NCBI GenBank assembly: GCA_951406725.2
Contig: OX597826.1
Coordinates: 33,294,001 to 33,358,000 of the forward strand
Source of the DNA: Octopus vulgaris
Taxonomy: Eukaryota
Direction of reading: 5' to 3'
Length of the DNA stretch: 64,000 nucleotides
Shown here one piece after another: positions 1,016-62,000 of the stretch. The translations under genes and the position numbers were made by a program. The notes under the pieces were generated by a model. The model had not been told where the DNA came from. It made no database searches and worked only from the letters and a program-made list of their open reading frames with translations. How positions within the stretch are numbered: position 1 is the first letter of the stretch; each line of letters opens with the position of its first letter.

Positions 1016-1421
1016 ACGAGAAAGAAGCAACAAGAATGGATTAGTTTTTAGTACAATTGTTTCATACAAAGACAGGCTTTATTACAAGTTGCAAAAATTG
1101 CAGCAGATAAAAGTGTCCTGTACTTATCAGCTAAAATACATATGAGTTCTCCAAACATCTTAGTGGGTGAGGTTATACTCATGAAATATTGGAGATAATT
1201 TCATTAAAGGCAGATATAGGTTGCAAACAGATTTCCAAAGTTCCTTAATGATGATGCACAGTCTTATCACAGAAAGAACTCATATGGAGAACTCATATGT
1301 ATTTTAGCTGATGAGTACAGGACACTTTTATCTGCTGCAATTTTGCAACTTGTAATAAAGCCTGTCTTTGTATGAAACAATTGTACTAAAAACTAATCAA
1401 TTCTTGTTGCTTCTTTCTCGT
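1016..1421. mobile_element. Palindromic non-autonomous element (PLE-type), arms ~1016-1153 and ~1285-1421
   Basis: ~137-bp near-perfect inverted arms; (TA)n on the right; a remnant of the same terminus at ~32190-32225. Confidence 0.8.
1302..1391 (+). ncRNA. Type-I hammerhead ribozyme, canonical core, long stem II
   Basis: TTTTAG-CTGATGA-GTACA...TGTAT-GAAAC-AATT-GTA-CTAAAA: stem I TTTTAG/CTAAAA, palindromic stem III ACAATTGT, GUA cleavage triplet. Confidence 0.8.
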
Positions 1422-1873
1422 ATATATATATATATATATATATATATATATATGCACACATACACACACACATGCATATACACACACAACGAATTTCCCT
1501 CAGTCTCTGCCCACCTAAACCACTCAAGAGGCTGTGGTCTTTCAACAGGATTGAACCCAGAACAGTGTGGTCGAGATGCAAGAGGATACACTCTGATATT
1601 TGTTCTAGTGCTTGGTGCTGTAAGCTGAAACCCATCTGAGGTTTACTTCTTTCGTTTTGGTGAGTGGCGGGGATGCGAGTTTGGCGATTATAATGAACCT
1701 CAGTCAAGAATGCTGGATTAGCTGCCACGTGGTATTTGCTGTTGGTGTTGGTTGTGCTTTGAGTTCCAATTCCAGCAAGGTCAAATTTAACTTTTATTTT
1801 CTGGAAACAGAGGAATGAAATAAAAGGAACCAATCTAGAACAATTGGTTGGCCAAGTTGTAAGATCGACGCCA

Positions 1874-2980
1874 TTACACCACCATCACCATCATCATCAT
1901 TGTCATCCTCATCATCGTTTTCATCATCATCATAGCCATCATCGTTGTCTTCATTCTCGTCATCCTCCTCATCAGTAGCACTGTCATTATCATCATCACC
2001 ACCCTCAGCACCATGACAAGGATCTTTATCATCATCATCACCATCACCATCATCATGATCTTCATGATCTTCATCATCATCACCACCACCACCACCACCA
2101 CCACCACCACCACCACCACCACCACCACCACCACCACTACCATCACCATAATCATGATCCTCATCATTTTCATTATCAACACTATAACCATTATCATGAT
2201 GATCATCATCATCATTATCATCATCATCACCATTAAATAGACAGCTATATACACCATAGTTATTTCCTCCTCCTCGTCATCATCACCAATGCCATTGTTA
2301 CAATTACTGACATCAACATCAACATCAATACCATCGTCACCATCATCGTCACAATGACAACCAATATAACTTAGTCAACCGGTGCAGTGTCATCAAACAC
2401 AATGAAACTCCGTGTCATGCCAAAAAGCCTCTCCTCTCTACCTTGTACACCACACCGCACTAAATGCAGCAACTGCAGCAGCTGTGTTGTTGCTGGCGGT
2501 GGCGGCAGGGGCGGTGGTGGTGGCAGTGGTGGTGGCGGTGGTGGCGATGAATTGATGGTGGGGGTGGAGGTGGTGTTGTTGATGGTAATGGTGGTGGTAG
2601 TGTTAGGAATGTCTGGTGATGGTGGTGGTGGTGGTGGTGCTGATAGTAATGATGGAGGTGATGGTGAAGGTGGGGGGGATGATGGTGGTGGTGGTGGTGC
2701 TGATAGTAATGATGGAGGTGATGGTGAAGGTGGGGGGGGGGGTGATGGTGGAGGAGATGGTGGAGGTGGAGGTGATGGTGGAGGTGATTGTGGAGGTGGA
2801 GGTGATGGGGATGGTGGTGGTGGCAGTGACGGTATTGGTGTTGCTGGTAGTTGTCGTGGCATTGTTGCCGGTGATGTTGGTGTTGTCAGTGATGGTGTGT
2901 CGGTGGTGGTGTTTGTGGTGGTTGTAGTTTTATTAATAGTAGTAGTTATTAGTACTAAGGGTGGTAGTGGTGGTGGTGAT
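1874..2980. repeat. Degenerate trinucleotide low-complexity domains, (CAT/CAC)n then (GGT/GAT)n
   Basis: Direct reading; includes a 60-bp direct duplication at ~2620-2740. Confidence 0.95.
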
Positions 2981-3684
2981 GCTGAACGTGTTTTTTTTTT
3001 AAAGTTTCTACTCAATTTGTAGCTGTTTTAGTTTCATTTATTTTTCCTTTCGCTTTCATCTCAAATTGTCATCGATTACTTTTCAAGTTCAATGTTAAAT
3101 GAGCTATTATTAACACGCAAGCATTGTGTGGGTAGGAGTCATGTCGACAGAGATCTGTGAGGGGTGGCATCAAAGTAATTCACATTCACAACCAGCGTTT
3201 ATCAAAGAAGAATGATGATGCCACTACATGGTCACTTGATGTGCTGGAAATCACAGCCAAATCTTTGGAAATCGCAGCCTATTGTCTTAAAATGAGAGCA
3301 AGTTTGGATAATGTGGTCTTAGGGTCTGTGTAGATAGCAAAAACATAAAAATAATGGGTTTGGTTATAGCTGCAATGAATTGGAATCAAAGTCTACTTTG
3401 TCAGAGTTGGCCTGGGGTTAAATGATAAGAACTTAAAAAAAAGACAAATGTAAACAAACTTGAATAAAATTACTAGATGTAGTTGAATAAGGATGCATGT
3501 ATGTATGTGTGGAAGTATGAAGATATGTAAATGTGTGTATACATGTATGTCTGCATGTGTAGTGTGTGTGAACACACATATATCTATATATATATATGTA
3601 TGTATGTATGTATGTATGTATGTATGTATGTATGTATGTATGTATGTATGCATGTATGCATGCATGCATGTATGTATACACACG

Positions 3685-4000
3685 TGAAGGTGCAATGGCC
3701 CAGTGGTTAGGGCAGCAGACTCACGGTTGTAGGATCGTGGTATCGATTCCTAGACTGGGTGTACTGTGTGTTGTGAGTGTTTATTGAGCAAAAACACCAA
3801 AAGCTCCACGAGTCTCTGGCAGGGGGTTTTTGGCGATCCCTGCTGTACTCTTTTGCCACAACTTTCTCTCAATCTTTCTTCTGTTGGCCTGCTCGCTTAG
3901 CCAGTGTTGTGGTGTCATTTGACAGCTAAAACAATGCAAAGCGCATTGTGACCATCGATGTGTAGCAACATCTGATAGCCTGGTCGGTCACAGTGATCAC
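3685..4000 (+). mobile_element. tRNA-derived SINE (family C variant)
   Basis: A-box TGGCCCAGTGG, degenerate B-box GTATCGATTCC; body shares AAGCTCCACG and GCCACAACTTTCTCTC with 29048 and 47272. Confidence 0.7.
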
Positions 4001-60118: not shown

Positions 60119-61052
60119 ATAATAGAAATATTAAAATAACTAAGTCTCTCTAAAAGAGAACAGCGGCAGCGTTCCCGGAAAATAATAGTTATCGCCATAC
60201 TAATATGGCATTCTTATAAAAATAAGAAAAAAGCTGTCCGCTTATTAGCTCCATGAGGCCATCACCTTAAGTTAGCTATTTGATACACAAACTGTATCCA
60301 TATAACCTTCGAACAAGGGAGGTCAGTCGCTCCACACTACTTGACCGGCAGCTACAGACGCGTTTCGGGGTATTGCCCCTTTTCAATGCAGCGTAGCCAG
60401 CCAGTAGGTGTCGCTTCCGACAATCTCTGTTCGATGGTTTTATTTACCTAGTTTCGGTGGAATACATCCACTTGTTTTCAATAATAGAAATATTAAAATA
60501 ACTAAGTCTCTCTAAAAGAGAACAGCGGCAGCGTTCCCGGAAAATAATAGTTATCGCCATACTAATATGGCATTCTTATAAAAATAAGAAAAAAGCTGTC
60601 CGCTTATTAGCTCCATGAGGCTAATAAGCGGACAGCTTTTTTCTTATTTTTATAAGAATGCCATATTAGTATGGCGATAACTATTATTTTCCGGGAACGC
60701 TGCTGCTGTTCTCTTTTAGAGAGACTTAGTTATTTTAATATTTCTATTATTGAAAACAAGTGGATGTATTCCACCGAAACTAGGTAAATAAAACCATCGA
60801 ACAGAGATTGTCGGAAGCGACACCTACTGGCTGGCTACGCTGCATTGAAAAGGGCCAATACCCCGAAACGCGTCTGTAGCTGCCGGTCAAGTAGTGTGGA
60901 GCGACTGACCTCCCTTGTTCGAAGGTTATATGGATACAGTTTGTGTATCAAATAGCTAACTTAAGGCGATGGCCTCATGGAGCTAATAAGCGGACAGCTT
61001 TTGTCTTATTTTTATAAGAATGCCATATTAGTATGGCGATAACTATTATTTT
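60119..61052. mobile_element. Tandem + inverted PLE-type element: 362-bp period, 433-bp arms 60179-60611 / 60620-61052
   Basis: Unit start repeats at 60119 and 60481; fold-back with 8-nt loop; (TA)n flanks. Confidence 0.9.
60351..60392 (-). ncRNA. Minimal type-I hammerhead ribozyme, U3-A8 core variant
   Basis: GCTGCA-TTGAAAA-GGGG-CAATA-CCCC-GAAAC-GC-GTC-TGTAGC; mirror copy at 60839-60880 (+). Confidence 0.78.
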
Positions 61053-61090
61053 TATATATATATATATATATATATATATATATATATATA

Positions 61091-61428
61091 ACAATTGCAG
61101 CGTGGAAGGTGTTTATGAGCCATTTAAGAAACACACAAAAGCCGTTCGATTCACTTCAACATTTGAGTTTAATTTGTCAAAATATTTTCGTCGCTAAAAT
61201 CCGCGACCTGTTCACTGACAAAAATCTGTGCTGCCGGATTTTTGTCAGTGAACAGGTCGCGGATTTTAGCGAGAAAATATTTTGACAAATTAAACTTAAA
61301 TGTTGAAGTGAATCGAACGGCTTTTGTGTGTTTCTTAAATGGCTCATAAACACCTTCCACGCTGCAATTGTTTTCATTACAGCACACGATCTCAGATCAG
61401 ATTACTTGCTATGCGAGTACATCTCCGT
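61091..61428. mobile_element. Palindromic element, ~137-bp arms spanning 61091-61371, plus a one-sided tail; (TA)n flanks
   Basis: Direct reading; same family as 18292-18467. Confidence 0.88.
61173..61222 (-). ncRNA. Minimal hammerhead-like ribozyme, G3-C8 variant
   Basis: TTTGTCA-GTGAACA-G-GTCGC-GGATTTTA-GCGAC-GAAAA-TA-TTT-TGACAAA; the mirror copy at 61241-61289 lacks one C. Confidence 0.65.
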
Positions 61429-62000
61429 ATATATATATATATATATATATATATATACATACATATATATATATATATATATATATATACTAATAGTGAG
61501 GGGTCAGCAAAAGAGATGCATCATATATATATATATATATATATATATATATATATATATATATATATATATATATACACATATATATATACTAGAAAAA
61601 TGGTCAAATTTTCCACAAGAATTTAGTTCAATTTGAAAACTCCACTAGAATGGACGAAAGCGCTAATACATGATATATGATATATGATATATAATGTATA
61701 AAAACATGTAATATACAAATAAATATCTGTAAATATAAAACCATCCGAATTTCTGAGTACCTTATTTCTTCTAATATAAAATACCTGCACATCATCTCCA
61801 AACCTTCTAATACATATATATATATATATATATATCATCATCCTCATCATCCTTTTAGCGTCCGTTCTCCATGCTAGCATGGGTTGGACGGTTCAACTGG
61901 GGTCTGTGAAGCTTGAAGGCTTCATCAGGCCCAGTCAGATCTGGCAGTGTTTCTACGGCTGGATGCCCTTCCTAACGCCAACCACTCCGTGAGTGTAGTG

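What the first reader, a model, noticed from the sequence alone, without database searches (positions are those of the whole stretch)
1016..61670. Several families of palindromic, microsatellite-embedded non-coding elements, each carrying a hammerhead ribozyme
Seen: at least 7 sequence-unrelated short elements (1016-1421; 4270/53585; 5484/6319/13376; 18292/61091; 23076-23265; 38801-40535; 60119-61052; more weakly 61590-61810) each fold into a type-I HHR. Most have a tiny, often self-complementary stem III (ACAATTGT, ACATATGT, ACGCGT, AATATT, ACGT, AGCGCT). Most lie in (TA)n and many form long inverted duplications. Established: Penelope-like elements carry minimal type-I HHRs with palindromic stem III that are thought to cleave as dimers, and they insert as tandem or inverted pseudo-LTRs; retrozymes are HHR-bearing non-autonomous retroelements. 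Inference: this is a dense population of PLE-mobilised retrozyme-like elements, with autonomous-type PLE relics in the same window (42600-44010, 4520-4720). I cannot tell whether these particular families have been described.
Basis: partly seen in the sequence, partly recalled or inferred. Interest (0 to 1): 0.88.

Follow-up and report, generated by a model that had tools for sequence, protein, structure and literature searches.

The report
Penelope ends with unusual hammerhead ribozymes
The ribozyme-shaped motifs are real, but seven of the eight families are broken-off ends of protein-coding Penelope-type jumping genes and only one is a non-coding ribozyme repeat; the surprise is one jumping gene that carries a tRNA-type promoter and would be read by RNA polymerase III, plus ribozyme cores with swapped letters predicted to cut slowly.

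Summary
Observation holds: a type-I hammerhead (HHR) descriptor finds 6 motifs here and 0 in each of 20 shuffles; eight unrelated multi-copy families. The interpretation mostly fails. Genome copies show seven families are ends (pLTRs) of RT + GIY-YIG Penelope-like elements (PLEs): three Hydra-type (1016, 23076, 38801), two Neptune-type (4270/53585, 61590), one Penelope/Poseidon-type (5484/6319/13376), one other (18292/61091). Only 60119-61052 is a retrozyme (362-nt unit, ~99% identical copies). The palindromes are two-armed PLE insertions with one long and one short end (58 of 59 loci). Less ordinary: (1) the Poseidon-type pLTR holds a tRNA-like promoter (27 of 30 ORF ends), short copies stop at its first base, and the 2.6-kb coding strand has no TTTT, suggesting Pol III transcription; (2) fixed core variants G3-C8, A6U, U3-A8. 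No cleavage, transcription or circles shown. The 61590 HHR is doubtful. This scan noted the same system, the end rule and the tRNA promoter before in other windows of this genome. Known kind, new variants.

The parts
901..1273 (-). Family A long arm: 3' end of a Hydra-type PLE; 901-1015 is the 115-nt tail; HHR core mutated (G8A)
   Evidence: ORF link
1285..1421 (+). Family A short arm; intact HHR, core at 1308, predicted cut after 1385; ends in (TA)n
4270..4464 (-). Family B: 3' end of a Neptune-type PLE; HHR with A6U core at 4392
4558..4700 (+). Decayed fragment of a Hydra-type PLE ORF
   Evidence: tblastn E about 3e-5 to relatives of the F protein; translation
5483..5777 (-). Family C pLTR: tRNA-like head (5745-5670), (AAT)n, HHR (core 5596), tail; short inverted stub at the head
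6117..6207 (-). Family C head fragment
6319..6511 (-). Family C pLTR body with HHR (core 6437) and tail, head missing
13376..13822 (+). Family C two-armed insertion: tail stub, head from 13425, (AAT)n interrupted by another repeat, HHR core 13733, short end; 13-bp target duplication at 13363-13375 and 13823-13835
18293..18467 (-). Family D: 3' end of a PLE, intact HHR with G3-C8 core at 18418, inverted tail stub; 11-bp target duplication (18281-18291, 18468-18478)
23074..23261 (+). Family E: 3' end of an older Hydra-type PLE; HHR core 23106, long stem II, 2-bp stem I
32189..32231 (+).
38801..39276 (-). Family F short arm: 3' end of a Hydra-type PLE; intact HHR, core 38911
39272..40535 (+). Family F long arm (3' UTR, about 290 bp of unmatched sequence inside, HHR core 40344, 80-nt tail)
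42572..44100 (-). Broken Hydra-type PLE ORF (RT thumb, linker, GIY-YIG), 46-56% identical to family A protein
53585..53775 (-). Family B second subfamily copy; intact A6U HHR, core 53707
60119..60611 (-). Family G retrozyme, long arm (362-nt unit plus 131 nt); intact U3-A8 HHR, core 60386
60620..61052 (+). Family G retrozyme, short arm (unit plus 71 nt); HHR core 60845 with one stem II change
61090..61429 (.). Family D two-armed insertion in (TA)n: short minus arm (core 61215), long plus arm with tail
61590..61818 (+). Family H: 3' end of a Neptune-type PLE; HHR-like motif (U3-A8 core 61633, 2-bp stem I), doubtful

Best explanation
Seven of the eight families are the hammerhead-bearing ends of protein-coding Penelope-like retrotransposons and one is a 362-nt non-coding tandem retrozyme, all likely pasted in by Penelope enzymes that would start copying the RNA at two fixed internal sites, giving inverted pairs with one long and one short end. 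Shown: ORF continuity for A, B, C, D, E, F, H; tandem non-coding unit for G; fixed 3' ends, ragged 5' ends, (TA)n or 9-14-bp target duplications; the long/short rule. Inferred: the enzyme nicks both target strands and primes one cDNA at the short site and one at the long site; early stops leave only the HHR-containing end; G borrows a (TA)n-targeting PLE enzyme and is copied from a circle or an uncut multimer; HHRs with 4-8-nt palindromic stem III would cut only as dimers or with protein help. In family C the pLTR contains a tRNA-derived internal promoter that likely sets the RNA's 5' end.
For: ORF upstream of the HHR on the same strand: A, L036/L032/L031/L034 aligned over 2-3.3 kb; F, 784-codon stop-free RT+EN frame in L236; E, L182/L194/L196/L201; H, L217/L206 and L030; B, L405/L411/L425/L414/L427/L422/L409/L408/L400 aligned over about 2 kb from RT to HHR; D, L429/L430; C, ORF start after the HHR and ORF end before it. 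G: 10 of 24 distinct loci hold two or more whole units in a row, copies about 99% identical, no ORF link in any fetched locus. One long plus one short end: A 8 of 8 and D 8 of 8 distinct two-armed loci, F 2 of 2, G 16 of 17, C 24 of 24 true inverted arms end short opposite a long arm (the long arm was selected by the search). C target duplications >=9 nt in 13 of 25 loci against 10 of 600 mismatched pairs. This matches published PLE anatomy (PMC8557442) and the two internal RT start sites and two-strand nicking shown for Poseidon_Ac (PMC11167929).
Against: No full-length intact element was recovered for any family; searches score only the best 40 candidates, so short non-autonomous subfamilies sharing these ends cannot be excluded (L341, L342, L349, L367 show small deleted C units in tandem). 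No enzyme partner for G was found. D's ORF link rests on two loci, one interrupted. One G locus (L043) has two long ends. Rfam does not recognise any motif. Clade labels rest on motifs, not on a tree with reference sequences.
Confidence: 0.88

Rival explanations
1. All families are non-autonomous retrozymes that spread through self-cleaved circular RNAs.
For: True in form for G. Most genomic copies of every family are short and ORF-free. Retrozymes derive from pLTRs (bioRxiv 10.64898/2026.07.22.740005).
Against: Seven families continue into a PLE ORF; their 5' ends are ragged; tandem units are rare outside G; no end maps to the predicted cut site (G ends at unit positions about 70 and 131, cut after 255).
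Confidence: 0.07
2. Family C is a separate tRNA-headed SINE that parasitises Penelope enzymes rather than part of the autonomous element.
Against: The same head lies 50-85 nt behind the ORF end in 27 of 30 loci found with the ORF C-terminus, and the HHR body reads straight into the ORF start. Short copies may still behave like SINEs, but the sequence is the element's own pLTR.
Confidence: 0.12
3. The hammerheads are mostly passengers: present and selected for shape or protein binding, but cleavage is slow or dispensable, which is why weakened cores could become fixed.
For: A6U in 52 of 53 B copies, G3-C8 in 46 of 49 D copies; changes at A6 lower activity (PMC3088659); G3-C8 only partly rescues and cleavage was not needed for insertion in vitro (PMC11167929); in C the ORF frame runs through the HHR; H's motif decays.
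Against: All three 3-8 combinations seen keep Watson-Crick pairing, position 7 varies freely, and G relatives keep stems and a palindrome through compensating changes (L272, L288), which points to selection for the active fold.
Confidence: 0.3
4. The motifs are chance products of AT-rich, palindromic repeat DNA.
For: Descriptor was tuned after seeing the motifs; a CTGATGA at 40697 proved to be chance; predicted monomer HHR folds are 0.6-7 kcal/mol above the minimum-energy fold.
Against: 6 against 0 in 20 shuffles, 9 against 0 in 3; each motif sits at the place where PLEs carry their HHR.
Confidence: 0.02

Closest known systems
Hydra clade of C-terminal EN+ PLEs, including Hydra-1_Obim (Craig et al. 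2021, PMC8557442; section 11, passages and supplement rows read)
   Same: Families A, E, F: C-terminal GIY-YIG, CxCX5C linker, DKT (seen in E, F), (TA)n targets, 3' HHR, inverted 5'-truncated copies
   Different: Different families from Hydra-1_Obim (its HHR row differs); A and F have about 2-kb 3' UTRs, stem II of 50-60 nt and tails of 115 and 80 nt against the 30-40 nt described
Poseidon_Ac / Penelope-Poseidon clade (Frangieh et al. 2024, PMC11167929; parts 1-3 of 4 read)
   Same: Family C: pLTR overlaps the ORF start, HHR inside the first codons, two 3' ends about 25-30 nt apart inside the ORF, non-microsatellite targets
   Different: tRNA-derived head with A/B-box-like motifs and an (AAT)n tract inside the pLTR; TTTT-free coding strand
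Neptune clade PLEs (linker motif as described in PMC8557442, passages)
   Same: Families B, H: RT, CX4CX2C linker, GIY-YIG with conserved His, microsatellite targets
   Different: B has a fixed A6U core; H has U3-A8 with a 2-bp stem I
Metazoan non-LTR retrozymes (PMC7229834, passages; bioRxiv 10.64898/2026.07.22.740005, part 1 of 5)
   Same: Family G: 362-nt non-coding unit, type-I HHR in each unit, head-to-tail arrays
   Different: Inserted as two-armed PLE-style inversions in (TA)n with long and short ends; U3-A8 core; circles not shown
Minimal PLE hammerheads (Cervera and De la Pena 2014, PMC4209133; parts 1-2 of 4)
   Same: Extra base before stem II, palindromic stem III, opposite-strand pairs 100-700 bp apart, natural U3-A8
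   Different: G3-C8 and A6U cores are not in the parts read
Sm-alpha / Sj-alpha of Schistosoma (via review PMC6765202, passages)
   Same: Pol III promoter next to a type-I HHR
   Different: Non-coding tandem repeats; here the promoter sits in the end repeat of a protein-coding element

Membership tests
EN+ Penelope-like element (A, B, C, D, E, F, H) | RT followed by C-terminal GIY-YIG on the HHR strand, contiguous with the repeat | tested here: met
   Pfam RVT_1 and GIY-YIG above cut-off only for the H-type protein, weak or absent for others
EN+ Penelope-like element | 5' truncation, inverted copies and a tail on one end | tested here: met
EN+ Penelope-like element | Full-length pLTR-ORF-pLTR copy | tested here: inconclusive
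   no single intact copy fetched; C unit of about 2.6 kb covered by overlapping copies
Hydra clade (A, E, F) | CxCX5C linker, no CCHH, CxxC and CxH around the late EN residues | tested here: met
   translations against section 11 of PMC8557442; one L236 copy has a short deletion in the linker
Hydra clade (A, E, F) | DKT motif | tested here: met
   seen in F and E; region absent from the A copies fetched
Hydra clade (A, E, F) | RWK motif and placement in an RT tree with reference sequences | not tested
   N-termini not recovered; no reference sequences in the script box
Hydra clade (A, E, F) | (TA)n insertion | tested here: met
   A and F ends; E window copy at 23074
Neptune clade (B, H) | CX2-5CxxC linker and His-containing EN | tested here: met
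   no tree; mutual RT identity 34%
Penelope/Poseidon clade (C) | No zinc-finger linker; HHR at the pLTR-ORF junction; RT start sites inside the ORF start | tested here: met
   no tree
Nematis clade (D) | Linker and RT phylogeny of Nematis | tested here: inconclusive
   Cys linker + GIY-YIG, distinct RT group; the name is recalled, not tested
Non-LTR retrozyme (G) | Non-coding 170-400-nt tandem unit with a type-I HHR in each unit | tested here: met
   core intact in 25 of 25 seed copies
Non-LTR retrozyme (G) | Self-cleavage and circular RNA | not testable with these tools
   only contigs of guessed RNA runs
Non-LTR retrozyme (A, B, C, D, E, F, H) | Stand-alone non-coding tandem unit | tested here: not met
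   ORF continuity as above
tRNA-derived SINE (C) | tRNA-related head | tested here: met
   z 8-9 to tRNA-Arg and tRNA-Thr among 30 genome tRNA loci; relaxed ARAGORN 9 calls against 2 on 23 heads; no Rfam tRNA hit
tRNA-derived SINE (C) | Separate from the autonomous partner except for the tail | tested here: not met
   head is inside the autonomous pLTR in 27 of 30 loci
Type-I hammerhead ribozyme | Core, 3-8 pair, stems I and II | tested here: met
   A, C, D, F, G meet it; B departs at position 6; E and H have a 2-bp stem I
Type-I hammerhead ribozyme | Catalytic self-cleavage as monomer or dimer | not testable with these tools
   needs in vitro assay

The most novel reading that the evidence does not exclude
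Family C is a protein-coding retrotransposon transcribed end to end by RNA polymerase III: a captured tRNA promoter in its pLTR starts an uncapped 2.6-kb RNA whose coding strand has been purged of TTTT terminators, every solo pLTR is a ready-made SINE, and the hammerhead at the start of the ORF controls translation versus packaging. Alongside it, abundant PLE families have fixed hammerhead cores (G3-C8, A6U) known mainly as engineered or weak mutants.
Probability: 0.3. Interest if true: 0.8.

Novelty: new variant of a known kind. Interest (0 to 1): 0.5.

Why it matters
The bulk is known biology seen in an octopus-like genome: PLE ends with minimal hammerheads, (TA)n targeting, inversions and a retrozyme. 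It matters in three ways. A Pol III-read autonomous retroelement would be an exception to the rule that protein-coding elements use Pol II and would give a direct route from PLE to tRNA-headed HHR repeats such as Sm-alpha. The near-strict long-end/short-end pairing gives a genomic read-out of how the two published RT start sites are used on the two target strands, testable with the existing Poseidon in vitro system. Natural G3-C8, U3-A8 and A6U cores in families of roughly ten thousand or more copies make the open question of whether PLE hammerheads must cleave directly testable.

Tried and rejected
Rfam: no hammerhead or tRNA match (one search covered the wrong part of L148); mir-965 hits are the G fold-back junction. 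ARAGORN on the window: 0 genes. Phage blastn of the C head: nothing significant. A canonical CUGANGA descriptor missed B, D, G, H. The ORF near B in L240 is unrelated to B. L428 looked like a 4-kb D tandem but is a local duplication with a satellite. CTGATGA at 40697 is not conserved in its family. Private variants shared between G units, a test for a circular template: almost all singletons, not decisive. RNA: no RNA holder listed; contigs of guessed RNA runs cover G and C but cannot show starts, strand or level; summed depth steps up about fivefold at the C head in all four runs, including the largest of unknown kind, so it says nothing on transcription. The TTTT test on single decayed copies was not significant (3 of 20 T3 runs extend, against 33 of 129 in other ORFs, p = 0.41); Phe codon use did not separate C from F, H or B. 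C as a separate SINE was my reading until. Lunse et al. on PLE hammerhead variants was not available and may already list these cores; the 1994 octopus SINE paper, Repbase and Dfam were not seen, so family-level novelty is unchecked; bioRxiv supplements were not seen.
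Full report
Setting. The window lies in a 2.8-Gb animal genome of 227 contigs. The microsatellite-rich landscape and the protein relatives suggest an octopus; this is inference. I label the families A (1016), B (4270, 53585), C (5484, 6319, 13376), D (18292, 61091), E (23076), F (38801), G (60119) and H (61590).

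Observation. A canonical descriptor found A and F clearly and C weakly. A second descriptor, written after seeing the motifs, allowed any Watson-Crick 3-8 pair and U at position 6. It gave 6 hits in the window and 0 in each of 20 dinucleotide shuffles, and 9 hits in 600 kb from 60 arbitrary stretches against 0 in each of 3 shuffles. Each family gave at least 40 scored matches genome-wide. HHR-region arms in the 600 kb: C 10, B 6, D 3, H 3, G 2, A, E and F 0, which is roughly 10,000-50,000 for the commoner families; the window has 16 arms in 64 kb, about six times the sample. Cores among seed copies: A CUGAUGA 27 of 29, D GUGAACA 26 of 30, F CUGAAGA 19 of 25, G UUGAAAA 25 of 25, H UUGAAAA 19 of 25, B CUGUAGA 23 of 30, C CUGAUGA 14 of 30, E CUGAUGA 11 of 25; many of the rest failed the strict flanking pattern. 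Rfam recognises none.

What they are. Following longer copies upstream on the HHR strand reached an RT + GIY-YIG ORF for seven families. A: four of ten extended loci carry the ORF, ending about 1.6 kb before the 3' end. F: a 784-codon stop-free frame in L236, ORF pieces in 4 of 9 extended loci. E: decayed ORF directly upstream in 4 of 25 loci. These three share the Hydra-clade motifs of PMC8557442 (section 11; supplement rows), as do the two window relics. B: at least 9 of 30 loci chosen for the upstream flank align over about 2 kb from RT through a CX4CX2C linker and EN to the HHR. H: same type. D: RT and EN in two loci, about 1.1 kb of UTR before the HHR region. C: the HHR body reads in frame into a PLE N-terminus and is preceded by the EN C-terminus. 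So these short pieces are 5'-truncated insertions, the usual PLE debris. G differs: a 362-nt unit, two or more whole units in a row in 10 of 24 distinct loci, about 99% identity, no ORF link. It meets the sequence definition of a non-LTR retrozyme (PMC7229834 passages; bioRxiv 10.64898/2026.07.22.740005 part 1).

The palindromes. They are head-to-head arms whose outer ends are fixed. One arm ends at a short site and the other carries a tail: A 8 of 8 and D 8 of 8 distinct loci, F 2 of 2 (overlapping duplicates dropped), G 16 of 17 (6 one-armed and 1 edge-cut locus left out), C 24 of 24 (one spurious arm dropped, and the long arm was favoured by the search). Earlier notes of this scan had stated this rule; I tested it here. 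Frangieh et al. (PMC11167929) show that a Poseidon protein nicks both strands and starts reverse transcription at two internal sites that bound the tail. My inference is that each strand is primed at a different site and the two cDNAs meet at their 5' ends. G obeys the same rule in (TA)n, so it likely uses a PLE enzyme; which one is unknown. Its ends (about 70 and 131) do not coincide with the predicted cut (after 255), and arrays cross several HHRs, so the template was a circle or an uncut multimer; variant sharing did not decide between them.

Family C. The pLTR is ORF end, 50-85 nt, tRNA-like head, (AAT)n, HHR, ORF start. The head follows the ORF end, whole or in part, in 27 of 30 loci, so it belongs to the autonomous element. 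It aligns to this genome's tRNA-Arg(UCG) and tRNA-Thr with z 8-9, though Rfam does not call it. Of 30 loci picked by the HHR body, 27 have head sequence, none runs more than 14 nt upstream of its first base and 17 start within -14..+5. Majority columns over about 2.6 kb of coding strand hold no run of four T: 0 against 1.8 expected and 0 against 3.0 expected (52 and 13 of 300 shuffles as low; about 0.01 combined). A has 4, B 2, E 10; F and H have 0 but in only 313 and 520 columns. Pooled over 29 related copies, 3 runs in 16.9 kb sense against 326 antisense (the strand is A-rich and copies are not independent). This fits read-through by Pol III. Against it: single copies were not significant; the sequence at the head's start is a small hairpin that could itself stop the RT; an uncapped RNA must still be translated. 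Self-cleavage can drive cap-independent translation (PMC13725137, abstract only), but here the frame opens upstream of the cut, so that link is speculative. Searches for Penelope with pLTR, polymerase III and tRNA found only a review, which describes Pol III only for the non-coding Schistosoma repeats.

Ribozyme cores. The tertiary 3-8 pair appears as C-G, U-A and G-C in this one window. Over all fetched loci, G3-C8 is in 46 of 49 D copies and U6 in 52 of 53 B copies, with position 7 free; a sister of B keeps A6 with the same stem II (L304). G relatives at 82-85% identity keep U3-A8 and change the palindrome on both sides. Natural U3-A8 and A6C are published (PMC4209133; PMC3088659; PMC7151607); G3-C8 appeared only as an engineered variant and A6U not at all in the passages read (searches). 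The most relevant paper on PLE hammerhead variants could not be read. Four-base palindromes (B, C) cannot close a hairpin, and predicted duplex energies run from -0.2 (D) to -7.5 kcal/mol (G), in line with the dimer model but weak for B, C and D. H is doubtful.

Prior description. A 2026 repeat annotation of Octopus vulgaris lists 31 recently active Penelope-like families and does not mention ribozymes (PMC13282606, passages). Octopus plus hammerhead gave four listed papers; of the two I opened, one covers octopus PLEs (Craig et al.). The scan has noted this system many times in this genome.

Verdict. Observation confirmed; interpretation partly right. Known kind of system with new variants. 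Interest 0.5; the Pol III reading has about 0.3 probability and would merit 0.8.

Noticed in passing
window 62760-63644 (-), 1-241 and 61950-62830: 294-codon frame with a PHD-like finger that resembles the end of an RTE-type LINE ORF (recalled label), beside 61-bp tandem repeats that recur at the window start
   Followed up: partly
window 40600-41500: Old dispersed repeat (about 80% identity, at least 40 matches, some inverted pairs) with a fixed left end; no ORF found in 4 loci; its CTGATGA is chance
   Followed up: partly
window 7380-7794 (+): Fragment resembling a restriction-like endonuclease end of a non-LTR element (recalled motif; no Pfam hit)
   Followed up: partly
window 3684-4000, 16080-16260, 22780-22970, 44520-44710 and others: At least two abundant tRNA-headed SINE-like families without hammerheads; one has more than ten copies in the window
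   Followed up: no
L304:2599 (+), L307:9826-9881, L288:9959 (+), L272:8363 (-): Further HHR families in the random sample: a canonical-core sister of B, a new palindromic family, and two older G relatives
   Followed up: partly
L341, L342, L349, L352, L367: Short tandem units made of family C's HHR body plus the first 120-240 nt of its ORF: possible newborn retrozymes
   Followed up: partly
L165: Four B ends in tandem, about 216 bp apart, separated by (TA)n
   Followed up: no
L030: A 506-codon Neptune-type (H-related) insertion nested between the two arms of a family A insertion
   Followed up: partly
L103/L104 and L429:5370-5401: Another small fold-back with CTGATGA cores in (TA)n next to D copies
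   Followed up: no
L230 (flank): 426-codon single-exon frame of cysteine-rich repeats, probably a host gene exon
   Followed up: no
L428:1500-4000: 29-bp satellite in both orientations with A/T-tract repeats inside a 4-kb local duplication
   Followed up: no
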